Origin: Gammaproteobacteria bacterium
GTDB lineage: Bacteria > Pseudomonadota > Gammaproteobacteria > CBDBNL01 > JAAOII01
DNA length: 64,000 nt
NCBI GenBank assembly: GCA_965209035.1
Contig: OZ242372.1
Coordinates: forward strand, 2,048,001-2,112,000
Direction of reading: 5' to 3'
Both the position numbers and the translations under genes were made by a program. Positions 21,470 through 40,602 of the stretch are shown piece after piece; the stretch's first letter is position 1; every line of letters begins with the position of its first letter. The notes beneath the pieces are model-generated. The model was not told the DNA's origin. It worked only from the letters and a program-made list of their open reading frames with translations, and did no database searches.

Positions 21470-21605
21470 TTTTCTAAATTTCATAAAATAACTCATAGCC
21501 TGTAAGAATTATAACATCTCTTGCCGTATTTTTTATGCAATTGCCATATTTTTATGTGCCAATACAAAAAGTGATACCGGGGAAGTAGTAACCACAAAGA
21601 AAATT

Positions 21606-23984: not shown

Positions 23985-25371
23985 AGAAATCGGGTGATAT
24001 CATTGAAAGTCACCAATATGAACAGGGAAATAAAAAATGCCAAACCGATGCGAAAATAATAGGATTGAAATTTCTTTGAAAGAGCTTTGCCGCGCACCAA
24101 TTCAATAACACAAAGAACCAGTTGGCCGCCGTCCAGCATGGGCAGGGGCAAAAGATTAAAGATGAACAGACTGAGGCTGATAAAGCCAAGGATAGACAAA
24201 AAGTTAATCAGTCCCGCGGCCGCCGAGTCGCTGGTGTACTTGACGATGCTGACCGGGCCGGAAAGACTTTTTACACTTAAGGAACCGATGAGAAGTTCGT
24301 AAAAACTGCGCCAGATTAACCGGACCATTTGCCCGGTTTGTACGGATGCCTTTTGCAGTGCCGGGATCAAACCCGCACGACTGACCACGAAATAAGATTC
24401 CAGTTGTGCCGCACTTGGCGGGGTAACGCGCAGACCGACAAAACCGCCCGGCATGCCGTTTTCATTTTCCGCTGTTGTCGGCGTGATGTGAATTGTAATT
24501 TGTTTTCCGCCCCGTTCAATGCTTAGCGAGGTTTCCAATTCGGCCCGTGTTTTGATATATTCGCTGAATTGCCCCCAGGAATTGATGTCGCGCCCGCCGG
24601 CCGCAATAATTTTGTCTCCGGCGAGGATGCCGGCCCGTTCGGCCGGGGTGTCGGGAAGAACCTCCCGGATATGTGCTTCTAATTGCGGTCGCTTCCCCCG
24701 CATGCCGAAGACAGTTTCCGGATCCGAGTTTTCCATGTCCGCCAAACGAACAGTATCCAGTTGCAATAAGACCGTGTTTTCGCGCCCGTGTTCTCTCAAA
24801 ACCCGAAGAGGCACATCCGTGCTTCCGATATCGGCCATTAGATGTGTGATCACTTCTTGCCAGGTTTCCGTTTTTGGCGCCGGACATGCGTGACCCGATC
24901 GTTCGCTTGCAGACTGCCGCCGGCTGCCGGCGTGTTCGGATAGACTTCGCCGATGACCGGCTTGAGCCCCGGCAGTCCGATCATTAAAATGAGAGCATAG
25001 ATCAAATAAGCCAACAGGGCGTTTGTTAGGGGACCGGCTATTAAGATAGCCATGCGAATTAATGGCGAAGATTCCTCGTATAGTCGTCCTTTTTTATTTT
25101 GGGTGGGCGTTGTTGTTACCGCTCCCATTTTCTCTTCTGTTTCTCCTTCCGTTGCAGATGTTTCAAACTGGACATAGCCGCCCAACAAGAGTGCACTGAA
25201 AACAAATTCTGTTTCGCTTTTTGCCTTAAAACGCAATAGCGTCGGTCCGAAACCCAAACTAAAACGCTTGACGCGTATCTTAAACAAAACGGCGGTCAGG
25301 TAGTGACCGAGTTCGTGCATCACAATCAGAAAACTCAAACCGAGAAGGGCAAACAACAGATTGATTAGCAT
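23981..25371 (-). CDS. rseP: RIP metalloprotease RseP, frameshifted into ORFs 24850..25371 and 23981..24853
   Basis: HELGH, GGYV and AGP..N in the N part; PDZ, LSGPV.I and NLLPLPMLDGG in the C part. One extra A in the A5 run (T5 at 24871-24875) joins them as VRRQKTETWQEV. Confidence 0.88.
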
Positions 25372-26555
25372 TTTTTCAAGAACTCCTCGGCGTAACTTTT
25401 ACTTTGTCGGGTTAATGCCAGAATCTCGTCGGCGCAATTCGGCAGAGTGTGACCGACAAATCGGTCCATCACTTTTTCTATGATTCCGGCCATGCGATCA
25501 AAAGAAATTCTTTTGGCAAGAAAAGCGGAAACGGCCGCTTCGTTGGCGGCATTCATCGCGGCCGGCTGGGCGCCTCTTTCCCGGGCGGCACGGCGGGCAA
25601 GTTCCAAAGCGGGAAACTCGTTTGCCGCAACCTCGCGAAAAGTTAACTCGGTTAAACGCAGCGGCTTGGAATTTTCGTATTCCAAATAATGCGGATAAGA
25701 AAGTGCCTGGTGAATCACCGGCTTCATATCCGGCGGACTGAGCTGAGCGATGGCGGATCCATCCGCGAACTCTGTCAGGCAATGTACGATGCTTTGCGGG
25801 TGAATGATGACCCGAATATCCTCTTGCGGCAAACAAAATAAAATACTTGCCTCGATCACCTCCAGTCCTTTGTTCATCATGCTTGCCGAATCCACGGATA
25901 TTTTGGCACCCATATTCCATATCGGATGAGCGAGAGCTTGTTCGGGGGTCACTTTTTTTAATTCTTCGGTACTATAGTTCAAAAAGGGGCCGCCGGATGC
26001 GGTTAAGGTGATGTTCCTCAGCCCAAACTCGTTCCTTGGATCTTCGCCAATGTTATAGGAGGGGGGTAAACAACGCAAAACGGCATTATGTTCGCTATCC
26101 AAAGGGATGATCTGCGTATTCTGTTTGCGTGCGATTTTCATCAGAAGATCCCCCGCACTGACCAGTGATTCTTTGTTTGCCAGTAACAGACGCTTGCCGG
26201 ATTGCAGTGCCGGGAAACAGGCTCGCAGTCCCTCGCCGCCGCTCAGGGCATTGATGACCCAGTCGGTGTTCTCGTCTTCGGCAAGTGTTTCAAGCCCGGC
26301 AGGGCCGCAAAAAATTTGAGGGGTGTGCTCACCGCCGAGAAGTTGTTTTAGTTCATTCACTGCGGCGGGGCTGCCGACCGAAACTTTTTGCGGCTGCCAG
26401 AAGGCACACTGGGCCGCCAGTTTTTTCATCTGTGAACCGGCCGCCAGCGAGGACACCCGAAATTTGTTTTGGTGTGCTTTTTGTTCTCTTAATACTTGCA
26501 AGGTATTTTCGCCCACCGAACCGGTGGACCCGAGAATCGCCAAAGAAATGCTCAT
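25365..26555 (-). CDS. dxr: 1-deoxy-D-xylulose-5-phosphate reductoisomerase
   Basis: LGSTGSVG, LANKESLV, PLDSEH, LTASGGPF, HP.W.MG.KISVDSA.MMNKGLE. Confidence 0.96.
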   Translation of the reverse strand: MSISLAILGSTGSVGENTLQVLREQKAHQNKFRVSSLAAGSQMKKLAAQCAFWQPQKVSVGSPAAVNELKQLLGGEHTPQIFCGPAGLETLAEDENTDWVINALSGGEGLRACFPALQSGKRLLLANKESLVSAGDLLMKIARKQNTQIIPLDSEHNAVLRCLPPSYNIGEDPRNEFGLRNITLTASGGPFLNYSTEELKKVTPEQALAHPIWNMGAKISVDSASMMNKGLEVIEASILFCLPQEDIRVIIHPQSIVHCLTEFADGSAIAQLSPPDMKPVIHQALSYPHYLEYENSKPLRLTELTFREVAANEFPALELARRAARERGAQPAAMNAANEAAVSAFLAKRISFDRMAGIIEKVMDRFVGHTLPNCADEILALTRQSKSYAEEFLKKC

Positions 26556-27397
26556 TGAACGAAAATAAAAAAGGTATAGAATAGAGGAATACCAAACAAC
26601 ATATTATCCATTCTGTCAAACATACCTCCGTGCCCCGGCAACAGATTGCCGCTGTCCTTGACACCGCTCGCTCGTTTTAGCACGCTTTGATAGAGATCGC
26701 CAAATTGTGTTACAAGGGCTATGGGGCAGATCGCCAATATAAACTCTGTTCCCCTGCTTTGGGGCGGCAAGGAATGCGGAGCCAAGACAAGAAACAGCGC
26801 ATAGACGATGTAGCAAAATGCAACACCGCCGAGCAGGCCGGCAACGGTTTTGTTTGGACTAACTTGGGGACACAAGAGTTTTCCGCCAAATGCTTTTCCG
26901 CAAACATACCCGCCGACATCAATCGAACATAACATTAAAAAAAGGAGCAGGGCTAAGTTGGCGGACAGAGATTGAATAAATAGCGCACTGATGTAAAAGA
27001 ACAAAGGTAAGACAAAGAAAATACCCGCGGAGATGAGACGCGACGGAGCATTGGCATTAACAGAGACAGAATCTGTCTTTTGCATTTCGTAGCGCAGAAC
27101 TTCCAAAATGGGTAAAAAAAGACAACCCAATATAAGAGATGCCCAAACAACGGGGTAATCGGCAACGATGTTCGCAGGCAGCCAAAATAGTCCGAATAAC
27201 AAAACAAGAATTAGAAAAACCGGAGTGAGTTCCCCGCCGGGAAACCGGATTCTTAACAGAGATTGCCATTCCAAAGCCACCAAAACCAGAACAAAGATCA
27301 AGAAAAAAGAAAGAAGGAGACCTTTGCCGTATAGGATGATTAGAGAGACCGGGAGCAGTAAGGCAATACCGGTCAAAAGACGCAGGAACAGTTTCAT
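26552..27397 (-). CDS. cdsA: Phosphatidate cytidylyltransferase
   Basis: SPNKT..G, GDL..S..KR..GVKDSG.LLPGHGG.FDR.D; start set at ATG 27397. Confidence 0.92.
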   Translation of the reverse strand: MKLFLRLLTGIALLLPVSLIILYGKGLLLSFFLIFVLVLVALEWQSLLRIRFPGGELTPVFLILVLLFGLFWLPANIVADYPVVWASLILGCLFLPILEVLRYEMQKTDSVSVNANAPSRLISAGIFFVLPLFFYISALFIQSLSANLALLLFLMLCSIDVGGYVCGKAFGGKLLCPQVSPNKTVAGLLGGVAFCYIVYALFLVLAPHSLPPQSRGTEFILAICPIALVTQFGDLYQSVLKRASGVKDSGNLLPGHGGMFDRMDNMLFGIPLFYTFFIFVQ

Positions 27398-27425
27398 TGG
27401 AACAGTTTTGTTGCTTTTCTTATTC

Positions 27426-28145
27426 TTAATGCTTTGAAACACCAAATCTTCGATCTCGGCGAGCAAAAGAGCGAAGGGCATAACGAAAGTGTCGGACATT
27501 AAAATCAGGCCAAAGTTTTTCGGAAAAAAAGAATTCCGTATAAGCCATCTGCCATAAAAAGAAGTTACTAATGCGTTTTTCATCTCCCGTGCGAATACAA
27601 AGATCTATGGCGGGTTGTTCCGCAAGGCACAGATGTGCCGCCATTTCTTTTTCGGAAACCTGTTGCGGCAAGAGTTTTCCGTTTTGAACTTCAAGGGCAA
27701 TTTTTTTACAGGCGCGCACGATGTCCCAGCGACCGCCGTAATTCAAGGCAATATTTAAAGTCAAAGTTTGATTATTGCCGGTCAGTCGCTCGGCGTCTTC
27801 GATCTTGTTGATCAGACTTTTTGGAAATCCGGAGCGGTTGCCAATAAATAGCAGACGGACGGATTGTTTGTGCAAAGCGGAAGTTTCTTTGTCAAGAACC
27901 TCTTCAAACAGAGAGAGAAGTTGTCTGATTTCCCGGGACGGTCTGCTCCAGTTTTCGCTGCTCAGGGCAAACAGAGACAAGGACTTTGTTCCCTGACGAC
28001 AGGACTCCTTGACGACGTTGTGAATGGTTTTTATACCGGCCCTATGACCGTAAATGGGGGTTTTTGATTGTTGTTTCGCCCATCTTCTGTTGCCATCCAT
28101 GATAATGGCAATGTGCTTGGGTTTGCTTGTGACAAAGGATGCCAT
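27426..28145 (-). CDS. uppS: Undecaprenyl diphosphate synthase
   Basis: HIAIIMDGNRRWA, S.ENW.RP, NYGGR, IRT.DE.RISNF.LWQ. Confidence 0.96.
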   Translation of the reverse strand: MASFVTSKPKHIAIIMDGNRRWAKQQSKTPIYGHRAGIKTIHNVVKESCRQGTKSLSLFALSSENWSRPSREIRQLLSLFEEVLDKETSALHKQSVRLLFIGNRSGFPKSLINKIEDAERLTGNNQTLTLNIALNYGGRWDIVRACKKIALEVQNGKLLPQQVSEKEMAAHLCLAEQPAIDLCIRTGDEKRISNFFLWQMAYTEFFFSEKLWPDFNVRHFRYALRSFARRDRRFGVSKH

Positions 28146-28236
28146 TGGAAGCCTAAACTAAGAAAAAGACAGGGAAGGGTAATGTGTTCCGGGTTGACGA
28201 GCAAACATCTCATCGCATCGGTTCGACGGAAGGCGA

Positions 28237-28785
28237 TTAGAAAGAAGCGAGGTCTTCTTCTTTTTGATGCAGCAAGTGATCCGCCCGCTTAATGTATTCT
28301 TCGGTGATCTTGTCCGCTTCATTGCCCATACGTTTCTCATCGTCTTGGCTGGGCTCCAGTTTTTTGATTTTATGCAGCGTATCGCGTCGGACATTACGAA
28401 TGGCAATACGGGCCTGTTCGGCTTCGTTGCGTGCCTGTTTTTGGTAATCTTTGCGTGTTTCTTCCGTCAGCGGAGGAAGAGCGATTAACACCTCGCCTTT
28501 GTCATTGACATTTGGATTTAACCCCAAGGAAGATGCCAACAGGGCTTTTTGCACGGTCTCGGTTTGATTCTTATCCCACGGCGAGATACTCAAAGTGCGG
28601 GCGTCCAAAATTCGGATACTTGCCATTTGATTCAAGGGAGTTGGGTTGCCGTGATAATCGGCTTTGATATCTTCCACCAACGAACTGTGGGCTCTGCCGG
28701 TGCGCAACTTGTTAAAATGTTGATTAAGGACAAGAATGGCGTTATCCATACGCTTCTTCATGTCCGTTTCCAATTGTTTGTCCAT
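28237..28785 (-). CDS. frr: Ribosome recycling factor
   Basis: LRTGRA, LGLNP, PPLTEE.RK, AIRNVRRD; ATG 28785 preferred over TTG 28800. Confidence 0.95.
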   Translation of the reverse strand: MDKQLETDMKKRMDNAILVLNQHFNKLRTGRAHSSLVEDIKADYHGNPTPLNQMASIRILDARTLSISPWDKNQTETVQKALLASSLGLNPNVNDKGEVLIALPPLTEETRKDYQKQARNEAEQARIAIRNVRRDTLHKIKKLEPSQDDEKRMGNEADKITEEYIKRADHLLHQKEEDLASF

Positions 28786-28827
28786 AATTTCTTTTGTCAA
28801 AAATATTTAATCTAAAGTTTGAATTTT

Positions 28828-29535
28828 TTAATCTCGAATAAGTGTTCCCAAACTTTCACTGCGAACAACTTCTTTGAGCGCGCCTTCTTTCATGATACTG
28901 AAAACACGAATCGGCAGGGTATTGTCACGGGCAAGAGCAACTGCGGTAATGTCCATCACTTCCAGTTCCCGGCTAAGCACTTCCGCATAGGCAAGGAGCT
29001 CGTATTTTTTGGCATCGGCATTCTTTTGCGGATCGCGGTTGTAGATGCCGTCCACCTTGGTCCCTTTTAGTAGAATATCCGCTTCTATTTCTATGGCACG
29101 CAAGCAGGCGGCGGTATCCGTTGTGAAGAAAGGATTGCCTGTACCACCGCAATATATGACAACCTCACCGTCTCGCAGATACCGAATGGTGTTAAGCGGG
29201 TTGTGTCTTTCCAGAATGCCTGTGACCGATATGGCGGATACCAGACGACAGCGCACAGATTTCTTTTGCAAGGCATCCCGCAAAGCAATGCCATTGATAA
29301 TGGTTGCCAACATTCCCATCTGGTCGCCCGCCATTTTATTTACCCCGTGTTCTTGCAGTTGCCTTCCCCGAACCAGATTACCGCCGCCGACCACTATGCC
29401 GATTTCTATTTTTTCTTCGGCCAGTTCGGCCAGTTGTTGCGCGATGCTTTCCATCTGCTGTGATTGAAAACCCAGTTTACCGGTTCCCGCAAGAAATTCA
29501 CCGCTAATCTTTAGAAGAATTCTCTTGTAAAGCAC
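28828..29535 (-). CDS. pyrH: UMP kinase
   Basis: YKRILLKISGE, VVGGGN, D.MGMLAT..N, GTGNPFFTTD; GTG start immediately after the tsf stop. Confidence 0.95.
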   Translation of the reverse strand: MLYKRILLKISGEFLAGTGKLGFQSQQMESIAQQLAELAEEKIEIGIVVGGGNLVRGRQLQEHGVNKMAGDQMGMLATIINGIALRDALQKKSVRCRLVSAISVTGILERHNPLNTIRYLRDGEVVIYCGGTGNPFFTTDTAACLRAIEIEADILLKGTKVDGIYNRDPQKNADAKKYELLAYAEVLSRELEVMDITAVALARDNTLPIRVFSIMKEGALKEVVRSESLGTLIRD

Positions 29536-29536
29536 T

Positions 29537-31429
29537 CTAAAAACCGACTCGGATTTCGTTTTGTCCAATCTCACAACGGACAAAGGCGACCTTTTGGACA
29601 CCGGCATTTTTGAGAAGATCACCAATCTTTTGTTTCGGGTCCTTGATGGATGCCTGCTCGCTCAGAGACAATTCCTTGGCATACTTTTTTAATCTTCCTT
29701 CAATCATTTTGCTTTTAATTTCGGGCGACTTGTCTTCATCCTCTGTTTGCTTTATGTAGATTTCTTTTTCTTTGTTCAGGATTTCCGGGGAAACATCTTC
29801 CGGTCGCACAGCCTGCGGACTCATGGCGGCAACCTGCATTGCCAGATCGTAACACAATTGCAAATCGGGTTTATCCAATGCAACAATTGCTGCGATACGA
29901 CGATTTGTATGCAGATAGGATGCCACACAGCCGCCTTTTTCCGCACTCAGCCGAATAAAAGGCGCCAAAACAATGTTTTCTCCCATTTTTTGCCGCGTAT
30001 CGGCAAATAACTTTTCCGTTTCGTTGTCCTTTTCAAACAGCTCGTCCGGTTCGGAAGATTGCTGTTGGTGTGATTTGACTGCCAATGTTTCCGCAAGGCT
30101 GATCATATCCGCATTTCTGGCAACAAAGTCTGTTTCGCAGTTAATTCGGGCAATGGTCGCCGTGTTCGCTTCCGCTTCCGTATGCACAGCCAAGAGTCCC
30201 TGTAAAGCGTCCCTGTCCGCTTTCTTTAGTGCCTTAACCTTACCGGTAATACGTAACTGCTCTATTGCCTTTTCCGAATCCCCGCCGGTTTCAATCAGTG
30301 CTTTTTTACAGTCAAGAATACCCGCTCCCGTTATTTCGCGCAGTTTTTTAATGGTCGCCGCGCTGATGTCGCCCGAAGGAAGCGTCTGAATCGGCGGAAG
30401 CGGCTTTTTATCGGCTATATGATTGCCGTCTTGTGTTACGGCCTCCCGGTGTTCCTTATTGGAAGGCGATGCGGTGTCATTTGGGGTCGCAGATGCGGTG
30501 TTATCCCTGTTAGTTTGCGTCTCGGCTTCTGCCGTTTCCGTCCTTTGCTCCTTGGCGGGTCCTGTTCTTCTTTTAATAAGGGTGGTGTTAATATGTTTTT
30601 CGGGTTCCGGCTGCGGCGCATTGTCCGAGTCGTCTGCTTCTTCATTCGTTTCTTCGAACTGCCGGCCGATTCGCCGGCCCGAATGCTCTTGCTCGGATGA
30701 CTTTTGCCAATCCGGTTTCGTTTGCCCCGGGCCTATGCCTTCCTCTTCCGCCACCTTAGTTCCTTGCTTAAAAGAGTCCGTAATAGCGGTCAAGTATAGT
30801 TCAATCGCTTTCACCGAATCATCGTTACCGGGAATGGCATAATCGGCTTGGGAAGGATCACTGTTCGTGTCCACCACCGCAATCACAGGTATGCCGAGTT
30901 TAATGGCCTCGGCGGCGGCAATATGTTCATGCTTAATGTCAATGATGAACAGGGCATCCGGTAATCCGCCCATATCGCGAATACCGCCGATATTGCGTTC
31001 CAGTTTTAACATTTCCCGCCGACTCATCATTGCTTCTTTTTTGGTGAATTGATCCAAAGAGCCGTCCGTGCTTTTCTTTTCCAAGTCCTTCAACTTTTCT
31101 ATGGACGCGCTCACAGTTTTGTAGTTTGTTAGCATCCCGCCCATCCAGCGATGATTGACATAACATTGTCCGATAGATTGGGCATGCCGGCGAATGAGTT
31201 CGCGAGCGGTTTTCTTTGTCCCGACAAACAAAATTTTATTTTTTCTGCGGGCAATGTCATACACTGTTTCACTTGCCTGTCTGAGCCGAACAAGTGTCTT
31301 ACTTAGATCAATGACATGAATGTTGTTATAGGTGCCATAGATATATTTCCGCATTTTGGGATTCCAGTACCGAGCCCGATGCCCGAAATGTGCTCCCACT
31401 TTTAGCAGTTCGTTGATTGTAACTTCCAT
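29537..31429 (-). CDS. rpsB-tsf: Fused 30S ribosomal protein S2 / elongation factor Ts (630 aa)
   Basis: aa 1-~223 are S2 (GAHFGH..WNPKM, RW.GGMLTN, VDTN.DP, IPGNDD); aa ~354-630 are EF-Ts (IKKLRE.TGAG..DCKKAL, NCETDFVA); the frame is continuous. Confidence 0.92.
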   Translation of the reverse strand: MEVTINELLKVGAHFGHRARYWNPKMRKYIYGTYNNIHVIDLSKTLVRLRQASETVYDIARRKNKILFVGTKKTARELIRRHAQSIGQCYVNHRWMGGMLTNYKTVSASIEKLKDLEKKSTDGSLDQFTKKEAMMSRREMLKLERNIGGIRDMGGLPDALFIIDIKHEHIAAAEAIKLGIPVIAVVDTNSDPSQADYAIPGNDDSVKAIELYLTAITDSFKQGTKVAEEEGIGPGQTKPDWQKSSEQEHSGRRIGRQFEETNEEADDSDNAPQPEPEKHINTTLIKRRTGPAKEQRTETAEAETQTNRDNTASATPNDTASPSNKEHREAVTQDGNHIADKKPLPPIQTLPSGDISAATIKKLREITGAGILDCKKALIETGGDSEKAIEQLRITGKVKALKKADRDALQGLLAVHTEAEANTATIARINCETDFVARNADMISLAETLAVKSHQQQSSEPDELFEKDNETEKLFADTRQKMGENIVLAPFIRLSAEKGGCVASYLHTNRRIAAIVALDKPDLQLCYDLAMQVAAMSPQAVRPEDVSPEILNKEKEIYIKQTEDEDKSPEIKSKMIEGRLKKYAKELSLSEQASIKDPKQKIGDLLKNAGVQKVAFVRCEIGQNEIRVGF

Positions 31430-31553
31430 AATTTTCTTATTTCAAGGGTTGTAACAAATTCTCTTTTCTACAAACCGACGCTATGCGCACCCTGATCTGT
31501 AATGTAAAAAAAGAATGATAATATAATTAATTTTCCTGTAAATTATAACACAC
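31430..31553 (-). promoter_or_regulatory. rpsB extended -10 promoter and S2-type autoregulatory leader
   Basis: GTGTGTTATAAT at 31542-31553. Leader TACAGATC-AGGGTG-CGCATAGCG-TC-GGTTTGTA...ACAACCC resembles the gammaproteobacterial S2 leader (GGGU internal loop plus AACCC). Confidence 0.6.
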
Positions 31554-31749
31554 GGCGTTTGTAAAGAACAACTTGTGAGGCAAAAATTCTTATTACGCGG
31601 ACGGAAAAAGAATTCGTTTTGGAGAAAGGTTGCCCGGATAATAAACCGATGTCCGTCGATGTCCGTATTCTTTGGAATTTTGTGGGTTGCGACGACTTCT
31701 GCGGGATGATTCAATACGGACAAAACTTGTCTTTTTTAATCTAAAAAAT

Positions 31750-32149
31750 TCTATCGGCGACCCGGTTCTTGCAAAAATACCAAAAGTCCGAAAATAGGTG
31801 GGATTATACACGCTCATCCGCATCATCGGTGGCCGCCGCATTCCATCGGGTCGTGACAGCAAACGGCAGCACCCACTGGCATACCCATACTATTTTATTT
31901 TTGGGGAAACCACAAATGAATGCACACTGTGAACGATTCAATCGCACTCCTTAAAAATATCTCGGGGGAAGAGTTCGGTTGTCATATGCGACATCTCCTA
32001 TTTAAAGGATATGCCGGCATTCAATGCCAAGTTCATCGCATGGCTGGCTTGGTATCATCGCGAACATCCCCATTATGCTCTCAAACAACTCTCGCCGATC
32101 CGGTTTTTACAAAAATAAAAAAGTCCGAAAATAGGTAGGATTATATGCA
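31750..32149 (+). mobile_element. Degenerate IS481 3' fragments with two right ends; copied at ~36189-36588
   Basis: Frameshifted remnants of FHRVVTANGSTHW, KPQMNAHCERFNRT, EEFGCHMRHLL; ends GGTGGGATTATACA and GGTAGGATTATATGCA. Confidence 0.85.
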
Positions 32150-32224
32150 TGCAAACTTGTAAATCGGTGTTATAATGCTAACCTTATAAAAAAATTGTAT
32201 AAACCAGTAACTCTTAAATAAAAA

Positions 32225-34702
32225 ATGATCAATAAACTTAACCTTTTATCAGTTCGGTCGGCGAAAGGAACAGCCGGCCAACTGTCCCGCCCGGCATTCG
32301 CACGGGGTCTTAATAATGTTCCGAATACTTCAAAAGCTTTTTCAAAAGCTTTGATGTTGTTTGTTGGGCGAATTGCGTTGCCCTTAACGGCAGTTTCCAA
32401 TGCTTTCCGGCGGATGAAACGGTCATCTCGTTTGGCTCGTTTAGGTCGTTTAGTGTGCACCGTTCTGCTGGCAGGCACATTCGGCTTGGTCCTTGCCGGT
32501 TGTGGCGGAGGCGGCGGTTCCGGCGGCGGAGGCGGTGATCCTCGTGCTGTTGCCAAGATTGGAGTCAAGGCAGGTGAGGAGCATATTCTCGTGAGTTGGA
32601 ACAACCCGGATCAGGCGAATATCACCGGGTTCAATATTACTTGGGTCAATGTTGGTAATGATGCCGATGTGAACGATAAGGGAATGAGGATCCTTACTGA
32701 TGCTGATTTGCTGCAGCCCGGGAGTCGGGTGATGTACAACATTACGGGTCTAACCAATGGCAAACGCTATGAGATCAGGATTGCGGTGCTTTATGCGGAT
32801 GGCACATCCTCGACCTTGGTTTCCGTTCAAGGCACGGCCGGGATGGATCCGGGTGACGGCGGTGATCCCAATTTTCCGGCTGTTTCCAATGTCCAAGTCA
32901 TGGTCAGTGGAAATAATATTACCGTGAGTTGGACCAATCCGAGTCAGGATGGTCAGGAGGCTATCATCGGGTTCAATATTAATTGGATTAATGTGGATGA
33001 TAATGCCGATGCGAACGATAGAGGAATGGAACCATTTAATCCTCCCATGGCAAATGTTACAGCCGGTGCTTCGGTTACATATAAGATTCCGAATCTAAAC
33101 TATGACAACACCTACAAGATCACAGTTTCGGTGCGTTATGCGGGTCGTCAAGATCCCGTCCCTTCGACTGCGGTTGAAGGCAAAACCGGAATCAATCCGG
33201 ATATTGATGGTGATGGATTGTTGAATACGGATGATAATTGTCCGCTAGATAGGAATCCGGGGCAGGATGATAATGACACAGATGGGTCAGGCGATGCCTG
33301 TGATGATGACGATGACAATGATGGCACAAAAGACGCAGAGGATGCGTTTCGCACAGATGCATGTGCCAGTACCGACACGGATAAGGATGGCATGCCGGAT
33401 CGTTTGGTTGCCGGTTGTCAAAGTCCAACAGGCTTGACCGAAGACTCGGACGATGACAATGATGCTGTCCCGGATGAGACGGATGTGGATGACAATAATA
33501 ATAGTCTCATAGAAATTCGCAATTTGGATCAGTTAGCCCTACTGCGCGGCGATCTGAATGGCGATGGGGATGATGATGATGAGAATGACGGGATTACCGC
33601 GGTGGGCACTGTGGGTTGTCCGAGTTCCGGCTGTGCCGGTTACGAACTGACCCGCTCGCTCAATTTTAGCGATGCGGATTCCTATAACGGAAGCAGTGTT
33701 AATATGGACGACTGGACGGATCGCGATGGCAGCGGCTGGGTGCCGATTGGCTCCTGTGTTGCCGTTGATGATTGCACCCCTTATACGGGAATCTTTGATG
33801 GCAGGGATTATGCTCTTGCCGATCTGTTCATTGCTGCGGAGGCTACCGACAATGGAGTGGGCTTATTTAGTGCGTTCAATGGTAGTCTTCAAAATCTGCA
33901 TCTCCGGGATGTGAGTGTCAGTGGCGGTGCCAGTGATGTGGGTCTGCTGGTAGGCCATGGAAGGAATGCCCGTTATGTAAATCTGTTGGTTACTGGTGGC
34001 AGTGTGGTGAGTCCGGGATCCGACGTGGGCGGACTGGTTGGAGATGCGGATAGTGCGGAGATTCGCTATGCCGGTATATCCGATGTAGATGTTTCCGCGG
34101 GGGGAAATACTGTAGGCGGACTGGCTGGATCTGGGGAGATGATGGATATTCGCTATGCTTATGCATCCGACGGAAATATTTCCGGAGGCGCTCGTGTTGG
34201 CGAACTGGTTGGAGATGCTGATAATGCTGATATTCGCTATGTTTATGCGTCCGGCGGAAGTGTTGCAGGCAGCAGTGGTATTGGCGGACTGATTGGAGAT
34301 ATATCGAGCACTCAAATTCATGTTTCTTATTCCGCCACCGGATCTGTTTCAGGAGCTGGAATTGCTAGTGGCTTGTTCGGTATTTCCGATTCAGAAACCT
34401 TCGTCAATGTTTCCTATTGGGATACTCAGACCACCGGGCATTTAACCAATGACGGTAATTTTGGTGTGGGCTATACCACAACAGAATTGCAATCACCGAC
34501 CGATTTTACTACCGCCGGCGCGGATGGTTCGGACAATATCTATGCCGACTGGGACGGCATCTGGTGTCATCCGGACACGGGTGAAGTGATGGAAGTGGAT
34601 GATCAACCGGCCGGATTCTTAAGTGTTTGGGATCTTGGTAACGAGATGCAATACCCGGCTCTGAACTGCATGCCGGGCGGCCTCTCGGCACAGGGAAGAT
34701 AA
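32225..34702 (+). CDS. Surface lipoprotein/adhesin: 2 FnIII-like domains, thrombospondin type-3 repeats, GLUG-like domain
   Basis: Lipobox LAGC at Cys93 followed by a Gly linker; VSW.NP...YNITGL; DGDG..DNCP...GDACDDDDDNDG; GGLVG repeats; WDLG..YP.LNC end. Confidence 0.8.
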   Translation: MINKLNLLSVRSAKGTAGQLSRPAFARGLNNVPNTSKAFSKALMLFVGRIALPLTAVSNAFRRMKRSSRLARLGRLVCTVLLAGTFGLVLAGCGGGGGSGGGGGDPRAVAKIGVKAGEEHILVSWNNPDQANITGFNITWVNVGNDADVNDKGMRILTDADLLQPGSRVMYNITGLTNGKRYEIRIAVLYADGTSSTLVSVQGTAGMDPGDGGDPNFPAVSNVQVMVSGNNITVSWTNPSQDGQEAIIGFNINWINVDDNADANDRGMEPFNPPMANVTAGASVTYKIPNLNYDNTYKITVSVRYAGRQDPVPSTAVEGKTGINPDIDGDGLLNTDDNCPLDRNPGQDDNDTDGSGDACDDDDDNDGTKDAEDAFRTDACASTDTDKDGMPDRLVAGCQSPTGLTEDSDDDNDAVPDETDVDDNNNSLIEIRNLDQLALLRGDLNGDGDDDDENDGITAVGTVGCPSSGCAGYELTRSLNFSDADSYNGSSVNMDDWTDRDGSGWVPIGSCVAVDDCTPYTGIFDGRDYALADLFIAAEATDNGVGLFSAFNGSLQNLHLRDVSVSGGASDVGLLVGHGRNARYVNLLVTGGSVVSPGSDVGGLVGDADSAEIRYAGISDVDVSAGGNTVGGLAGSGEMMDIRYAYASDGNISGGARVGELVGDADNADIRYVYASGGSVAGSSGIGGLIGDISSTQIHVSYSATGSVSGAGIASGLFGISDSETFVNVSYWDTQTTGHLTNDGNFGVGYTTTELQSPTDFTTAGADGSDNIYADWDGIWCHPDTGEVMEVDDQPAGFLSVWDLGNEMQYPALNCMPGGLSAQGR

Positions 34703-34766
34703 GCAGATAAGCAAGTAAGCGAGAAGGCAAAGCGGACAAGCAAAAGCAAGAAGCAGACCGAAATCT

Positions 34767-34792
34767 CGTTTGGCTGCTTCGGCGAGCCAAAC
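34767..34792 (+). other. Hairpin with C-UUCG-G tetraloop downstream of the lipoprotein gene (copy near 39388-39412)
   Basis: GTTTGGCT-GC-TTCG-GC-G-AGCCAAAC is identical in both units while the surrounding sequence diverges. Confidence 0.6.
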
Positions 34793-35139
34793 AGATCGTT
34801 TTGGCGGCGATGCAGTGTCTATGCAGCAGCTGTGAAACGAAGATGAAGCGTCTGTGAAGCGTCTATGCATCTTCTGTGAAACGAAGACGAGTGTGCGGCC
34901 AAGAGTGCATCTTTAACAAGCGCCGATTTTTCTACAAGTTAAACCCCGCAATCGGGCGCGGCTGGGACGGATACGGTGGGACGGCAAGGCAAGTCCGCCG
35001 GCTGTGTTTCTGATGCCGGTGAGATCGCGAATGAGCATCCTATCCTTTTCATCTCTTTTTCTTTTTTTACGGATGCCCGTATCCGCTTATTCTTGTTATA
35101 ATGTATCTATTAAATGTATCTATCTAAAAGATTTGTTCT

Positions 35140-35844
35140 ATGAGTTGGCTAAATAAGATTGTTTCCGGGGTTTCCGGCACGGAGTCCCGTAAAAAGGAAG
35201 TTCCGCAGGGTCTTTGGCAGAGGTGCACCTCGTGCAGTGCGGTTCTTTACAAACCCGAATTGGAAAAGAATCTGAATGTTTGCGGTAAGTGTGATTTTCA
35301 TATGCCGTTGCCCGCCGGTAAGCGATTGGACTTTTTCCTGGATAAGGGCGAAAGAATCAAACTGGGCGAAAAAATTCTGCCTGCGGATCCGTTGCGCTTT
35401 AAGGATAGCAAGCGATATAAAGACCGTTTGACACAGGCACGCACGGACAGCGGCGAAGATGAGGCCCTGTTGGTGATGGAGGGCACATTGGAAACGCGTC
35501 CCGTGGTTGCCGCCGCATTTGAGTTTAAATTCATGGGAGGGTCTATGGGTTCGGCGGTGGGACAACGATTTGTGGCGGGAGTCGAAGTCTGTTTGAAAAA
35601 ACGAATCCCCTATATTTGCTTTTCCGCCAGCGGCGGGGCGCGCATGCAAGAAGGATTAATTTCGCTGTTTCAAATGTCCAAAACCAGTGCCGCTCTCGCC
35701 AGACTTGCCGAGGAGAAGATTCCTTATGTTTCCGTGATGACCCATCCGACCTATGGCGGTGTCAGTGCCAGTTTGGCCCTGCTGGGTGATATTAATATAG
35801 CCGAACCGCGCTTGACTTATCAGCAGCTCATCGGGAGGCGGTAG
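35140..35844 (+). pseudogene. accD: Truncated accD copy (224 codons) fused to a foreign tail [10 protein letters not shown]
   Basis: Protein identical to 39742..40602 up to EPR; lacks GFAG.RVI and the C-terminus. Confidence 0.9.
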
Positions 35845-36169
35845 GTGAGCAGATGAGAAAGAAAGTGGCTGCAGCCGCCTCGCTAGCATGGTGTTTATCA
35901 GGATTGGAGTTTGAGGCAACACGATGAAGAAGACCCATTCAAAAGAAGATCCTCGGTGCAAGATCAAGTTGCAAGAGTTTGAGGAATTTTTCAGGCATCT
36001 GGCGAGTGCCAAGAAGTCCAAGACGTTAAAGGGTCAAGCGGGTTATGATCCTACCAAGAAAGAATTGGCACAGAGGTTTCAATATGATCCTAAAACAAAA
36101 AAAATTAATTTAATCGAAGAATGATCCGTACTTTCTTATTTTTTATGGGTAATCAAGTATATAATTCCC
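35813..36169 (+). mobile_element. Probable IS1595-family right-end remnant with a small passenger ORF
   Basis: RLTYQQLI resembles IS1595 transposase C-termini; the end reads GGGAATTATATACTTGATTACCC on the minus strand (36147-36169), exactly at the duplication junction. Confidence 0.55.
35924..36124 (+). CDS. Small basic hypothetical protein (66 aa)
   Basis: ATG with GAGG upstream; lies inside the putative IS1595 remnant. Confidence 0.45.
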   Translation: MKKTHSKEDPRCKIKLQEFEEFFRHLASAKKSKTLKGQAGYDPTKKELAQRFQYDPKTKKINLIEE

Positions 36170-36663: not shown

Positions 36664-39336
36664 ATGATCAATAAACTTAACCTTTTATCAGTTCGGTCGG
36701 CGAAAGGAACAGCCGGCCAACTGTCCCGCCCGGCATGTGCACAGGGCATTCATCATTCTGTCCCAAATGTTTATCCTTTAATAAGGCTATTTACCGGGCG
36801 GATTATATCGCCGCTAACTGCGGTCTTTTTTAATGCTAATGCCGGCCTGCGGATGAAACGGCCGTCTCGCCCGTCTCGCCCGTCTCGTTTATCTCGTTTA
36901 ATATGCACCGTTCTGCTGACAGGACTATTCGGTTTGGTCCTGGCAGGTTGTGCTGGCGGTGGTGGCGGCAGTGGCGGCGGCAACTCTATTTCTTCCAACA
37001 TCTCGGTTGTCTCGAACATTCAAACCCTGGTCGGCGAGGATCATATTCTCGTGGGTTGGACCAATCCGGCTGAGGAGAATATTACGGGGTTTAATATTGT
37101 TTGGTTCAATGTTGCCAATGTGAGTGATGGCGACATGGCGGAACTTAATGCTACCGGCGCGGATGTTTTGCAAGGTGCCCGTGTGATATACAACATTACG
37201 GGTTTAACCAATCAAATCACCTATAACATCACGATTGCGGTACTTTATGAGAACGGCGATGTCGGGCTGTCATCTTCTGTGGGTAGCAGGGCCGGAGCGG
37301 ATGCGGGTGTGGGTACGGATATTGATCTTGATGGTACTAATAATGACGACGATGCGTTTCCGACGAATGCCTGTGCGAGCACCGATACGGATAATGATGG
37401 TGATCCGGATAGTGTGGTTGCCGGTTGTCAAACAGACTTGACGGCGGACCCGGACGATGACAATGACGGTGTGAATGATCTTGCCGACGACGGAATGAGT
37501 CCGTTAGATGCATGTCCGCGCGGCGATACAGGCTGGACTTCCGATACAACGACGGACCATGACAACGACGGCTGTCGCGATGACAGCAACGAGGATTTGG
37601 ACGATGACAATGACGGTGTGAATGATCTTGTGGATCTTTGCCGGCGGGGGGAAACGAGCTGGAAATCCAATAGGATGACGGATAATGACGGTGACGGTTG
37701 TCGTGATGCCGATGAGGATCCGGATGATGACAATGACGGCACAGAGGACACGGCGGATGTGGATGACAATAATAATAGCCTGATAGAGATTTACACTTTG
37801 GATGACTTGGTGCGGCTACGCGATGATCTGGATGGCAATGGGGTGGATGATGGCAATAACGGCACCATTACCGCTGTGGGTTCTGTGGGTTGCCCGGTCC
37901 CAGATGGCTGTGCCGGTTACGAACTGACCCGCTCGTTGAATTTTAGCGATGCGGATTCCTATAACGGAAGCAGTGTTAATATGGACGACTGGACGGATCC
38001 TGCCGGCAGTGGCTGGGTGCCGATTGGCGAATGTTCTGATACGAATACTTGCAACGCCCGTTATACGGCAACCTTTGACGGCGGCGGTTATCATATTGCC
38101 GATCTGTTCATCTCTGCGGCTGATGATGCGATTGGAGTGGGGTTATTTGCCTCTTTACAAGATGGTAGCATTCAAAATTTGCGTCTCTTGAATGCGAATG
38201 TTAGCGGTGGTGCCGCTAATGTGGGTCTGCTCGCGGGCTTTAGCGGCTCGGCTCGTTATGAAAATCTGTCGGTGATTGGGGGAACGGTAACGAGTCCGCT
38301 GCGGAATCGAGTGGGCGGGATGATCGGTTACGCGGAGAGCGTGAGCGCGAGCGGGTCGCACGTTGAGATTCGTAATTCCTATGTATCCGATATTGTTGTT
38401 TCCGGTAATGCTCAAGTCGGCGGTCTGATTGGTCAAGTCGGCGATATGGCTGGTCAAGTGGACGAGGCTACGATTCGTACTGTGTCTGTGTTCAATGTCA
38501 CTGTTACCGGTCGGGGGGCGGGGGTCGGCGGTCTGATTGGTCAGGCGGACGAGGCTACGATTCGTGCTGTATCCGTGTTCAATGTCAATGTCAATGTCAC
38601 TGTTACCGGTGCCGTTCGGGGGGTCGGTGGCCTGGTCGGAGTGGTGGATGCTGCTATGATTCGTGCTGTGTCCGTATTCGGTGGCACTGTTACCGGTAAT
38701 AATAATGTCGGCGGCATGATCGGTGACAGACCGGATGGTGGAAGCATTCCTGGCGGCACTCCAAATTTGGAGCCTGTTGAGATTCATCATTCCTATGTGT
38801 CCGGCGTAGATGTTTCCGGTGATAATCAAGTCGGCGGTTTGATTGGCAGAGGAGATATTAGTACTATTAATCATTCCTATGTGGTCGGCGGCACTGTTGA
38901 CGGTAGTAATAAGATCGGTGGTCTGGTTGGCGCTGGCGGGCCCGATATTCGTTATTCCTATGCGGCTACTCCTGTCTCGGGCAGCGGGAATGTCGGCGGG
39001 TTACTTGGTTCCAATGAGACACTTAGCACTTTCACACCAACGGTTATCGCCTCCTATTGGGATAATGAAATCACGGGACAGCCAACCAGTGTGGGCGGTG
39101 GAATGGGCCTGACCACCAACGCTCTGCAAAGCCCGACTACTTTCACAGGCATCTATGCCGATTGGGATAATTTTTGGTGTGATCCGAGGACGGGCGAAGT
39201 GAGAGAGGATTCTACTACTGACGGTCTGGGTGCCCCCTTTGTCCCTGTCTGGGATCTGGGCGAGACAGGCCAATACCCCGTTCTGAACTGTCTTTCTGTC
39301 AGCGTAGAAGATCAACAGCAACAGCAGCGGCAGTAG
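36664..39336 (+). CDS. Surface lipoprotein/adhesin: FnIII-like domain, expanded TSP3-like repeats, GLUG-like domain
   Basis: Lipobox LAGC at Cys96; D.D.DGC.D repeats; VGGLIG repeats; WDLG...YPVLNC end; paralog of 32225..34702. Confidence 0.8.
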   Translation: MINKLNLLSVRSAKGTAGQLSRPACAQGIHHSVPNVYPLIRLFTGRIISPLTAVFFNANAGLRMKRPSRPSRPSRLSRLICTVLLTGLFGLVLAGCAGGGGGSGGGNSISSNISVVSNIQTLVGEDHILVGWTNPAEENITGFNIVWFNVANVSDGDMAELNATGADVLQGARVIYNITGLTNQITYNITIAVLYENGDVGLSSSVGSRAGADAGVGTDIDLDGTNNDDDAFPTNACASTDTDNDGDPDSVVAGCQTDLTADPDDDNDGVNDLADDGMSPLDACPRGDTGWTSDTTTDHDNDGCRDDSNEDLDDDNDGVNDLVDLCRRGETSWKSNRMTDNDGDGCRDADEDPDDDNDGTEDTADVDDNNNSLIEIYTLDDLVRLRDDLDGNGVDDGNNGTITAVGSVGCPVPDGCAGYELTRSLNFSDADSYNGSSVNMDDWTDPAGSGWVPIGECSDTNTCNARYTATFDGGGYHIADLFISAADDAIGVGLFASLQDGSIQNLRLLNANVSGGAANVGLLAGFSGSARYENLSVIGGTVTSPLRNRVGGMIGYAESVSASGSHVEIRNSYVSDIVVSGNAQVGGLIGQVGDMAGQVDEATIRTVSVFNVTVTGRGAGVGGLIGQADEATIRAVSVFNVNVNVTVTGAVRGVGGLVGVVDAAMIRAVSVFGGTVTGNNNVGGMIGDRPDGGSIPGGTPNLEPVEIHHSYVSGVDVSGDNQVGGLIGRGDISTINHSYVVGGTVDGSNKIGGLVGAGGPDIRYSYAATPVSGSGNVGGLLGSNETLSTFTPTVIASYWDNEITGQPTSVGGGMGLTTNALQSPTTFTGIYADWDNFWCDPRTGEVREDSTTDGLGAPFVPVWDLGETGQYPVLNCLSVSVEDQQQQQRQ

Positions 39337-39741: not shown

Positions 39742-40602
39742 ATGAGTTGGCTAAATAAGATTGTTTCCGGGGTTTCCGGCACGGAGTCCCGTAAAAAGGA
39801 AGTCCCGCAGGGTCTTTGGCAGAGGTGCACCTCGTGCAGTGCGGTTCTTTACAAGCCCGAATTGGAAAAGAATCTGAATGTTTGCGGTAAGTGTGATTTT
39901 CATATGCCGTTGCCCGCCGGGAAGCGATTGGACTTTTTCCTGGACAAGGGCGAAAGAATCAAACTGGGCGAAAAAATTCTGCCTGCGGATCCGTTGCGCT
40001 TTAAGGATAGCAAGCGATATAAAGATCGCTTGACACAGGCACGTACGGATAGCGGCGAAGATGAGGCCCTGTTGGTGATGGAGGGCACATTGGAAACGCG
40101 TCCCGTGGTTGCCGCCGCATTTGAGTTTAAATTCATGGGAGGGTCTATGGGTTCGGCGGTGGGACAACGATTTGTGGCGGGAGTGGAAGTTTGTTTGAAA
40201 AAACGAATCCCCTATATTTGCTTTTCCGCCAGCGGCGGGGCGCGCATGCAAGAAGGATTAATTTCGCTGTTTCAAATGTCCAAAACCAGTGCCGCTCTCG
40301 CCAGACTTGCCGAGGAGAAGATTCCTTATGTTTCCGTGATGACCCATCCGACCTATGGCGGTGTCAGTGCCAGTTTGGCCCTGCTGGGTGATATTAATAT
40401 AGCCGAACCGCGCTCGGACATAGGTTTTGCCGGTAAGCGCGTGATCAAACAAACGGTCAAGCAGACACTGCCCGAGGGCTTTCAAACCAGTGAATTCCTG
40501 TTAGAACACGGCGCCTTGGATTTAATCGTGCAGCGGGATGAACTGCGAACAAAAATTGCCTCGCTTCTCAATATTCTTTATCCTCTCGCCAAAGCAGACT
40601 GA
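39742..40602 (+). CDS. accD: Acetyl-CoA carboxylase carboxyltransferase beta subunit
   Basis: CxxC..CxxC zinc finger, [33 protein letters not shown]. Confidence 0.97.

What the first reader, a model, noticed from the sequence alone, without database searches (positions are those of the whole stretch)
29537..31429. Ribosomal protein S2 fused to EF-Ts: a possible ribosome-tethered nucleotide exchange factor
Seen: one open frame carries a complete S2 (aa 1-~223), a ~130-aa Glu/Thr/Pro/Ser-rich low-complexity linker and a complete EF-Ts (from aa ~354, SGDISAATIKKLR). The linker has no Met, and there is no in-frame ATG/GTG/TTG near the EF-Ts start; the only linker GTG is at the S2 end. The nearest out-of-frame ATG reading stops at 30436, so one indel error would not easily create this. 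Known: rpsB and tsf are normally separate cistrons; the nearest precedent I know is the plastid PSRP-7/EF-Ts polyprotein. Inference: EF-Ts may be held on the 30S subunit at 1:1, recharging EF-Tu locally, or the product is a processed polyprotein.
Basis: partly seen in the sequence, partly recalled or inferred. Interest (0 to 1): 0.88.

Follow-up and report, generated by a model that had tools for sequence, protein, structure and literature searches.

The report
Ribosomal protein S2 fused to EF-Ts
In this small gammaproteobacterial genome the genes for ribosomal protein S2 and the EF-Tu recycling factor EF-Ts are truly joined into one gene, the only copy of either, so EF-Ts is first made attached to a ribosomal protein, a rare arrangement that has arisen in several bacterial lineages.

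Summary
Window 29537..31429 (minus strand) is one 630-aa frame: S2 (aa 1-225), a 128-aa linker predicted to be disordered, and EF-Ts (aa 354-630).

- **Not an assembly error.** Contigs built from three runs of one sample match it exactly across the linker.
- **Only copy.** It is the only S2 and the only EF-Ts gene found in the genome.
- **Conserved.** All 5 species genomes of its GTDB family carry the fusion. The sister family and 29 other in-frame gammaproteobacterial candidates are split.
- **Linker is coding.** Linker dN/dS is 0.26, its indels are in frame, and only this frame is open.
- **No separate EF-Ts start.** G000 has no usable internal start codon, so EF-Ts must be made as a fusion.
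- **Recurrent.** One unrelated gammaproteobacterium and about 16 other 50%-identity protein clusters show the same architecture. An S2 tree needs at least 16 changes of state.

Whether the product stays whole (EF-Ts tethered 1:1 to the 30S subunit) or is cleaved cannot be decided by computation. I favour the intact tether at about 0.5.

The family's EF-Ts has also lost the C-terminal module that 51 of 51 other gammaproteobacterial tsf genes keep. The closest precedent is the plastid PSRP-7/EF-Ts polyprotein. Five literature searches found no paper on S2-EF-Ts fusions.

The parts
29537..31429 (-). Fused rpsB::tsf open reading frame, 630 aa plus TAG stop. It is the only S2 and only EF-Ts gene found in the genome.
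   Evidence: Sequence identical in Logan contigs of runs X1-X3.
30755..31429 (-). S2 (uS2) moiety, aa 1-225.
   Evidence: PF00318 aa 8-223, 1e-88. TIGR01011, 307.9 bits. Aligns to E. coli S2 residues 4-225 of 241. Mean pLDDT per 10-residue block is mostly 70-91 over aa 41-230 and 41-50 over aa 1-40.
30371..30754 (-). Linker, aa 226-353. Low complexity, predicted disordered, no Met. Probably derived from a long S2 C-terminal tail plus the former rpsB-tsf spacer.
   Evidence: pLDDT below 50 for aa 233-239 and 242-352. 0 stops in frame against 3 and 8 in the other frames. Composition. Linker length in the family is 55-134 aa.
30566..30595 (-). Short basic motif in the linker (aa 279-288, around the invariant L284). 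The family consensus is R-I-x-G-T-L-x-K-R/K. It is the only conserved element of the variable part.
   Evidence: Alignment A1 of 17 fused proteins; L284 is invariant. Similar basic K-R-K-V-V-T-K-K motifs occur in unfused S2 tails of other gammaproteobacteria. The equivalence of the two motifs is judged by eye.
29540..30370 (-). EF-Ts moiety, aa 354-630. It has the N-terminal TGAG-x-x-x-CKKAL domain and the core with the CETDFVARN Asp-Phe motif. It lacks the C-terminal module.
   Evidence: TIGR00116 aa 355-623, 229 bits. PDB 1efu_B residues 2-263 of 282. D434 and F435 are invariant in A1. The missing C-terminal module is shown.
31430..31500 (-). 5' leader of the fused gene. It holds a conserved AGGGTGC ... 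AACCCTT pair of complementary elements just upstream of the ATG. It may be the S2 autoregulatory leader. No SD-like sequence is present.
   Evidence: Alignment of upstream regions of L003, L004, L005, L010 and L060. No Rfam match at E<=1. The functional assignment is inference from recalled work on E. coli rpsB.
28828..29625 (-). pyrH (UMP kinase), the longest ORF. Its possible starts overlap or directly abut the 3' end of the fused gene, so no tsf-pyrH spacer remains.
   Evidence: PF00696, 115 bits. Coordinates. Sequence read.
28237..28800 (-). frr (ribosome recycling factor), the next gene of the conserved tsf-pyrH-frr cluster.
   Evidence: PF01765, 179 bits.

Best explanation
SHOWN. rpsB and tsf are joined in frame into one gene. 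This gene is the sole source of both S2 and EF-Ts. It has been inherited by every sampled species of the family.

INFERRED ORIGIN. An ancestor had a long S2 C-terminal tail, as many gammaproteobacteria do. It lost the rpsB stop codon, and the tail plus the former spacer became the linker. The tsf start codon and ribosome-binding site then decayed. Reversal would now need a new stop, a new binding site and a new start together, so the fusion is locked in.

INFERRED MECHANISM. One polypeptide is made. Its S2 part assembles late onto the solvent side of the 30S subunit. EF-Ts then hangs from S2's surface-exposed C-terminus on a 55-134-residue disordered tether. There it exchanges GDP on the freely diffusing EF-Tu, at one EF-Ts per ribosome. 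The fusion is tolerated for three reasons:
- S2's C-terminus is free.
- EF-Ts accepts N-terminal additions.
- Cells need about one EF-Ts per ribosome (recalled for E. coli).

No kinetic advantage is required. EF-Ts synthesis would fall fully under whatever controls S2 synthesis.
For: **Real sequence.** Contigs from three runs of one sample are identical over 30101-30800, with 0 differences and no indels, at mean word depths of 29.5, 38 and 11.5.

**Sole copy.** There is 1 S2 and 1 EF_TS match in G000. The same holds in each of G001-G004 and G163, always inside one open frame. A normal EF-Tu (732 bits) and a full-length S1 match are present.

**Conservation.**
- 5 of 5 genomes of family f1 (3 genera) are fused. 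The whole order has 6 genomes, and the sixth (G005) is split.
- 19 further 90%-identity clusters at 43-87% identity have the same architecture.

**The linker is translated.**
- Between G003 and G002, dN/dS is 0.255 for the linker, 0.011 for S2 and 0.126 for EF-Ts. The one indel is 13 codons, in frame.
- The coding frame has 0 stops in all 6 fused loci.

**No independent EF-Ts start in G000**. No promoter- or terminator-like site on the coding strand lies in the linker.

**Catalytic parts are intact.** D434 and F435 are invariant. Their role comes from the Asp-80/Phe-81 passage of PMC3747624.

**Feasibility.**
- A chromosomal S2-mCherry fusion in E. coli is found in assembled small subunits, with proper autogenous control. 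The C-termini are described as surface exposed (passages of PMC4081057).
- PDB 4toi is an engineered S2-S1 chimera.
- The Arabidopsis homologue seems to lack processing (PMC8343077).

**Recurrence.** The same architecture is in G163. It is also in about 16 other 50%-identity clusters, with linkers of 42-135 aa and no Met at the junction.
Against: - There is no protein-level or RNA-level evidence of any kind. No RNA run was listed.
- A 128-aa disordered linker is an easy protease target. The best-studied precedent, Chlamydomonas PETs, is processed into two proteins.
- S2 sits on the solvent side of the 30S subunit, away from the factor-binding site. This is recalled ribosome structure and was not modelled here, so a local-recharging benefit is not evident.
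- Linker charge ranges from -15 to +12 and linker length from 55 to 134 aa. This argues against a tuned tether.
- AF2 gives no fixed arrangement of the two domains (pTM 0.37).
- The origin scenario (stop loss) is inferred from comparison and not reconstructed.
Confidence: 0.5

Rival explanations
1. Processed polyprotein. The fusion is translated as one chain but cut in the disordered linker, by a housekeeping protease or at the conserved basic motif. Ordinary S2 (with a tail) and free EF-Ts result. The fusion then only enforces equimolar synthesis.
For: - Chlamydomonas PETs is processed post-translationally into PSRP-7 and EF-Ts (PMC8343077 passages).
- The linker is predicted to be disordered and evolves fast (dN/dS 0.255), as expected if only its presence matters.
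- One short conserved motif around L284 could be a recognition site.
Against: - Similar basic motifs occur in unfused S2 tails of other gammaproteobacteria, so the motif is probably a feature of the S2 tail and not a cleavage site.
- No protease gene is linked to the locus.
- The Arabidopsis PETs homologue is reported as apparently unprocessed.
- Independent lineages have unrelated linkers, so a specific processing site would have to evolve each time.
Confidence: 0.33
2. Two proteins from one frame. EF-Ts is also, or only, translated from an internal non-canonical start or from an internal transcript. The long frame is then partly an annotation illusion.
For: - In 4 of the 5 family loci a GTG codon encodes the conserved Val of the V-K-E-L-R motif at the EF-Ts N-terminus. 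L004 also has an ATG just before it.
- The S2 start itself lacks an SD-like motif in the 30 nt printed upstream of it in the five family loci.
Against: - G000 has no ATG/GTG/TTG between aa 227 and aa 373, and the corresponding residue is Ile.
- No SD-like motif lies upstream of any candidate near the EF-Ts start in the five family loci.
- No promoter-like site lies in the linker.
- No stop ends S2 translation, so the fusion would be made regardless.
Confidence: 0.05
3. Artefact or pseudogene. A sequencing or assembly indel removed the rpsB stop, or the locus is decaying.
For: - Some database proteins with both domains do look like frameshift products: P0027, P0036, P0037, P0040 and P0163. This was judged by eye.
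- The three supporting runs come from one sample, which may be the source of the assembly.
Against: - Five species in three genera keep the frame open through linkers of different length.
- Purifying selection acts on all three parts.
- It is the only copy of two genes held to be essential.
- Two of the family genomes are single contigs.
Confidence: 0.02

Closest known systems
PETs polyprotein of plastids (PSRP-7 plus EF-Ts; Chlamydomonas PETs, Arabidopsis EMB2726, rice OsAL7)
   Same: A small-subunit ribosomal protein is encoded upstream of, and in frame with, EF-Ts. Manuell et al. describe EF-Ts as covalently linked to the ribosome (passages of PMC1939882, and PMC8343077).
   Different: - The partner is an S1-domain, plastid-specific protein, not S2.
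- It is eukaryotic, nuclear-encoded and plastid-targeted.
- There are often two EF-Ts domains.
- It is processed in Chlamydomonas.
Here the partner is the universal protein uS2, there is one EF-Ts domain, and the host is a free bacterial genome.
Canonical bacterial rpsB-tsf operon with S2 autoregulation (E. coli; Aseev et al. 2008, seen only as a reference entry, otherwise recalled)
   Same: Same two genes, in the same order, followed by pyrH and frr. A conserved leader element lies upstream of rpsB.
   Different: In the operon a stop codon, a spacer and a separate tsf start are present. This held in 53 of 53 split loci with both genes that were read here (14, 12, 24, 2, and G005). In this family all three are gone.
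Engineered S2 C-terminal fusions (S2-mCherry strain, PMC4081057; S2-S1 chimera, PDB 4toi)
   Same: A folded domain is attached to the S2 C-terminus. S2-mCherry is incorporated into assembled 30S subunits.
   Different: These are artificial, and the added domain has no role in translation.
Engineered EF-Ts-EF-Tu fusions for Q-beta replicase structures (PDB 3mmp, 4r71, 3agp)
   Same: EF-Ts works while covalently joined to another translation protein (molecule names).
   Different: These are artificial. Most (4r71, 3agp) join EF-Ts ahead of EF-Tu, through its C-terminus, while 3mmp is named 'Elongation factor Tu 2, Elongation factor Ts'. In the natural fusion here EF-Ts is joined at its N-terminus.

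Membership tests
Bacterial ribosomal protein uS2 (PF00318 / TIGR01011) | Full-length match above the curated cut-off. | tested here: met
   PF00318 296.6 bits (cut-off 26.1), profile 1-216/216. TIGR01011 307.9 bits (cut-off 76.3)..
Bacterial ribosomal protein uS2 (PF00318 / TIGR01011) | It is the organism's functional S2, meaning no other copy exists. | tested here: met
   1 match in G000. 1 match in each of G001-G004 and G163.
Elongation factor Ts (PF00889 / TIGR00116) | Match above the curated cut-off that covers the N-terminal domain and the core. | tested here: met
   TIGR00116 229.2 bits (cut-off 104), aa 355-623. PF00889 177.4 bits.. 1efu_B residues 2-263.
Elongation factor Ts (PF00889 / TIGR00116) | The Asp-Phe pair of core subdomain N that contacts EF-Tu domain I (E. 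coli Asp-80/Phe-81; passage of PMC3747624). | tested here: met
   D434 and F435, in C-E-T-D-F-V-A-R-N, are invariant in 17 of 17 fused family proteins. The equivalence to E. coli residues 80/81 is taken from the motif and not from a printed alignment.
Elongation factor Ts (PF00889 / TIGR00116) | The C-terminal module (about 20 aa, G-E-G-I-E-K-K ... E-V) of proteobacterial EF-Ts. | tested here: not met
   Absent in 5 of 5 family loci. Present in 51 of 51 other gammaproteobacterial tsf genes with a readable end. It is typical of the proteobacterial form and does not define EF-Ts as a whole (recalled: Thermus and mitochondrial EF-Ts lack it).
Elongation factor Ts (PF00889 / TIGR00116) | Nucleotide-exchange activity on EF-Tu. 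| not testable with these tools
   Inferred from its being the only EF-Ts gene beside a normal EF-Tu.
PETs-type ribosomal-protein/EF-Ts polyprotein | N-terminal S1 domains (PSRP-7). | tested here: not met
   Pfam finds Ribosomal_S2 and no S1 domain.
PETs-type ribosomal-protein/EF-Ts polyprotein | EF-Ts domain(s) C-terminal to a small-subunit protein in one frame. | tested here: met
PETs-type ribosomal-protein/EF-Ts polyprotein | Post-translational processing into two proteins. | not testable with these tools
   No proteomic data were available.
NCBIfam NF051451, '30S ribosomal protein S2, sunset domain variant' | Score above the curated cut-off (710 bits). | tested here: not met
   222.4 bits. 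The match is carried by the S2 domain.

The most novel reading that the evidence does not exclude
EF-Ts in these bacteria works as a permanent, stoichiometric ribosomal appendage. It is a natural 'ribosome-tethered exchange factor' that has evolved convergently in more than ten bacterial lineages and in plastids. If so, free diffusion of EF-Ts is dispensable for life. It would also suggest that EF-Tu recycling at the ribosome surface is functional and perhaps favoured. The loss of the EF-Ts C-terminal module in this family could be an adaptation to working on the tether.
Probability: 0.2. Interest if true: 0.8.

Novelty: new variant of a known kind. Interest (0 to 1): 0.6.

Why it matters
EF-Ts is normally thought of as a soluble factor that recharges EF-Tu away from the ribosome. 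Here a whole bacterial family, and several unrelated lineages, have no EF-Ts other than one synthesised as the C-terminal part of ribosomal protein S2.

This is a ready-made natural experiment on two questions. Does the exchange factor need to diffuse freely? What does fixing it at one copy per ribosome do to elongation and to the control of its synthesis?

It is directly testable by expressing the gene in laboratory E. coli and looking at ribosome fractions.

It also matters for annotation. Such genes should not be 'repaired' into two genes. A 630-aa S2 and an apparently missing tsf in these genomes are real.

Tried and rejected
**Assembly error: rejected**.

**Alternative genetic code: not relevant.** The frame contains no stop at all.

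**Internal start: rejected for G000**.

**Internal promoter or terminator in the linker: none found.** None lies on the coding strand, and the counts for the region are not above the shuffles.

**Rfam leader or other RNA in 28000-32300:** 0 matches at E<=1.

**Expression:** no RNA holder was listed by the look-up of sequencing runs. Run X4 holds raw reads of a 90-99% relative. It covered parts of S2 and EF-Ts but put no read on 30288-30657, so it says nothing about the linker.

**The 'open_frame_aa' column.** In one search it first suggested fusions in many class members. Reading the loci showed that they are split.

**Second lineage.** I tried to test conservation of the G163 fusion among its relatives, but its order holds only that genome.

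**Taxon name.** I could not name the organism beyond Gammaproteobacteria. That assignment rests on its nearest named S2/EF-Ts relatives. I did not try to identify samples.

**Literature.** Five searches found no paper describing an S2-EF-Ts fusion. 'Sunset domain' also gave nothing relevant. About 1.7 million PMC articles and subscription journals are not covered by these searches. Supplementary files were not consulted.

**Not run:** Complex prediction. EF-Tu with EF-Ts is a textbook pair, and the result would not change my odds.
Full report
**1. The observation**

Window 29537..31429 holds, on the minus strand, one 630-aa open reading frame with an ATG start and a TAG stop.
- Pfam places Ribosomal_S2 at aa 8-223 (296.6 bits, the whole profile) and EF_TS at aa 424-623 (177.4 bits).
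- NCBIfam places rpsB_bact at aa 3-224 (307.9 bits against a cut-off of 76.3) and tsf at aa 355-623 (229.2 against 104).
- The 128 residues between them (aa 226-353) contain no Met. They are 20% Asp+Glu, 17% Ser+Thr, 13% Gln+Asn and 9% Pro.
- Between aa 215 and 373 the only in-frame ATG/GTG/TTG is a GTG at aa 226, and nothing SD-like precedes the EF-Ts part.
- The linker has no stop in the gene's frame but 3 and 8 stops in the other two frames.

I add that the gene is on the minus strand and that the EF-Ts part is not quite complete (section 5).

**2. Is it real?**

Contigs assembled independently from three runs each cover 30101-30800 with no difference and no indel, at mean word depths of 29.5, 38 and 11.5. 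The three runs come from one sample, which may be the source of the assembly. They show internal consistency, not independent confirmation.

The independent confirmation is comparative.
- G000 is 2.24 Mb in 2 contigs and 92.7% complete. It has exactly one S2 match and one EF_TS match, both in this frame.
- Its GTDB order contains 6 species genomes. All five of family f1 (three genera) have S2, linker and EF-Ts in one frame without a stop: 630, 633, 598, 611 and 586 aa. Two of them are single-contig genomes.
- Each of those genomes also has only one S2 and one EF_TS match.
- The sixth genome (G005, sister family) has a 319-aa S2 with a long tail at one locus. An ordinary tsf-pyrH pair lies about 300 kb away.

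The database search adds 19 clusters (90% identity) at 43-87% identity with the same architecture, 550-632 aa long.

**3. Is the linker coding?**

Between the two closest genomes (G003 and G002), dN/dS is 0.011 for S2, 0.126 for EF-Ts and 0.255 for the linker. The only indel is 13 codons long and in frame. The linker is thus translated sequence under relaxed but real constraint.

In an alignment of 17 family proteins the linker varies from 55 to 134 aa and from net charge -15 to +12. Only two parts are conserved:
- a continuation of the last S2 helix (L-A-E-x-x-S-M-M-R);
- a short basic motif around the invariant L284 (R-I-x-G-T-L-x-K-R).

Similar basic motifs (K-R-K-V-V-T-K-K) lie in the long tails of unfused S2 proteins of other gammaproteobacteria. 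I therefore read the linker as a former S2 tail plus the former intergenic spacer. This is inference.

AlphaFold2 with that alignment folds the bulk of S2 (roughly aa 40-232) and EF-Ts with confidence; blocks over aa 1-40 score only 41-50. It gives pLDDT below 50 for aa 233-239 and 242-352. The pTM is 0.37, so no fixed arrangement of the two domains is predicted.

**4. How rare is it, and did it arise once?**

- Twelve named gammaproteobacterial loci with both genes are all split (Kistimonas, Cellvibrionales, BD1-7 and several MAGs). A thirteenth locus ends inside S2.
- In an even sample of the class, 401 genomes were drawn and 400 scored. Of these, 32 gave a single in-frame match at E<=1e-100. 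I read all 32 loci: 3 are fused (G000, G001 and G163) and 29 are split.
- This count is a floor. A fusion that scores as two separate matches, as G004 did, would fall under the threshold used.
- G163 belongs to another family and is the only genome of its order, so its fusion could not be checked in relatives.
- Among 1.84 billion 50%-identity representatives I examined 26 of the best 150. I chose those long enough to hold both domains, or nearly so. Of these, 19 have both domains. One is a truncated fragment (P0221) and one looks like a frameshift product (P0163). That leaves 17, one of which represents this family.
- The other 16 have unrelated low-complexity linkers of 42-135 aa and no Met at the junction. 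I could not check their DNA.
- The ESM Atlas holds a cluster of 263 members that it names automatically after both domains. Its commonest phylum label is Actinomycetota.
- I built a FastTree of the S2 domain with 209 rows, 34 fused and 175 unfused. Rows with under 180 matched residues and the near-duplicate L005 were left out. The tree needs at least 16 changes of state.
- This family forms one clade of 9 rows (support 99). Other all-fused clades have 5 rows (100), 4 rows (85), 2 rows (90) and 2 rows (80).
- The tree is short and quick, and the unfused rows are a biased sample. I take from it only that the fusion arose several times and has persisted in some lineages.

**5. An extra feature: loss of the EF-Ts C-terminal module**

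The EF-Ts part aligns with E. coli EF-Ts residues 2-263 of 282.
- In all 5 family loci the protein ends zero to a few residues after the last core strand.
- All 51 other gammaproteobacterial tsf genes with a readable end carry 18-22 further residues with the G-E-G-I-E-K-K ... E-V motif. These include the sister family (G005) and the independently fused G163.
- One further locus is cut by a contig end.
- A passage of PMC3747624 says the N- and C-terminal modules contact EF-Tu domain I.
- In G000 the tsf stop directly abuts or overlaps the possible pyrH starts. The loss may therefore belong to a general compaction of the operon.

Whether the loss is connected with the fusion is open.

**6. Mechanism**

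*Shown.* EF-Ts in G000 cannot be made other than as the C-terminal part of an S2 polypeptide. The protein keeps the conserved Asp-Phe pair of the core (D434 and F435, invariant in 17 of 17). A normal EF-Tu and S1 are present.

*Inferred.* The S2 part enters the 30S subunit and EF-Ts stays on a flexible tether. Support for feasibility:
- A chromosomal S2-mCherry fusion in E. coli is found in assembled small subunits, with intact autogenous control (passages of PMC4081057).
- The PDB holds an engineered S2-S1 chimera and engineered EF-Ts/EF-Tu fusions.
- In plastids EF-Ts is encoded as a polyprotein behind the small-subunit protein PSRP-7. It is processed in Chlamydomonas, apparently not in Arabidopsis, and has been described as 'covalently linked to the ribosome' (passages of PMC8343077 and PMC1939882).

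From recalled figures for E. coli, EF-Ts is about equimolar with ribosomes, so a 1:1 fusion does not upset the balance.

I see no evidence for a kinetic benefit. S2 lies on the solvent side, far from the factor site (recalled), and the linker is not tuned in length or charge. A neutral stop-loss that became irreversible once the tsf start decayed is sufficient.

The main rival is cleavage in the linker. I give the intact tether about 0.5, cleavage about 0.33, internal initiation about 0.05 and artefact about 0.02.

**7. Comparison and novelty**

It is a member of the uS2 and EF-Ts families by every sequence criterion, except that it lacks the proteobacterial C-terminal module. It works like, but is not a member of, the PETs polyprotein family, because the partner is S2 and not an S1-domain protein. 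It does not reach the cut-off of the NCBIfam 'sunset domain' S2 variant (222 against 710 bits).

The architecture exists in sequence databases. Five full-text searches found no paper that describes it. I rate it a new variant of a known kind, with moderate to high interest as a natural test of whether EF-Ts must diffuse freely.

**8. Limits**

- The organism could not be named.
- No RNA or protein data exist for it here.
- Supplementary files of papers were not consulted.
- Statements about S2's position on the ribosome, EF-Ts abundance, the essentiality of both genes and S2 autoregulation in E. coli are recalled knowledge, not tool results.

Noticed in passing
window 29540-29600 (3' end of the fused gene); loci L004, L005, L006, L010: EF-Ts of this family lacks the roughly 20-aa C-terminal module (G-E-G-I-E-K-K ... 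E-V). All 51 other gammaproteobacterial tsf genes read here keep it, including the sister family and the independently fused G163.
   Followed up: partly
window 31731-40602: There is a tandem duplication of about 4.4-4.6 kb next to the fused gene. Each unit holds a large fn3-domain repeat protein (32225..34702 and 36664..39336, plus strand) followed by an accD-like gene (35140..35844, 234 aa, and 39742..40602, 286 aa). The flanks of the units are 98-100% identical and the interiors 72-94% identical. The first accD copy is shorter.
   Followed up: partly
window 31430-31500 (minus strand); upstream regions of L004, L005, L010, L060: Conserved complementary elements AGGGTGC ... AACCCTT lie just upstream of the S2 start codon, with no SD-like sequence. 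They are shared with the unrelated fused gene of G163. This may be the S2 autoregulatory leader. Rfam gave no match.
   Followed up: partly
G005 (L011 and L037): In the sister family rpsB and tsf are about 300 kb apart. rpsB (319 aa, long tail) stands alone before a convergent gene. tsf sits between a murE-like gene and pyrH. The order therefore shows both a fusion and a separation of the usually adjacent pair.
   Followed up: partly
window 19425-29625 (minus strand): The genes downstream of the fusion are tightly packed, with several overlaps of a few bases between neighbouring ORFs (for example 23981/23984, 24850/24853, 25365/25371, 26552/26555). pyrH, frr and the undecaprenyl-diphosphate synthase gene were identified by Pfam. 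The others were not scanned. This fits a compact, reduced genome.
   Followed up: no
L006 (G001), linker of its fused gene; protein P0020: The linker of this genus contains four tandem copies of a roughly 22-aa unit (K-E-V-G-A-K-V-K-P-D-Q-T-Q-Q-E-A-x-S-Q-K-A-Q). Linkers can therefore grow by internal repeat expansion.
   Followed up: no
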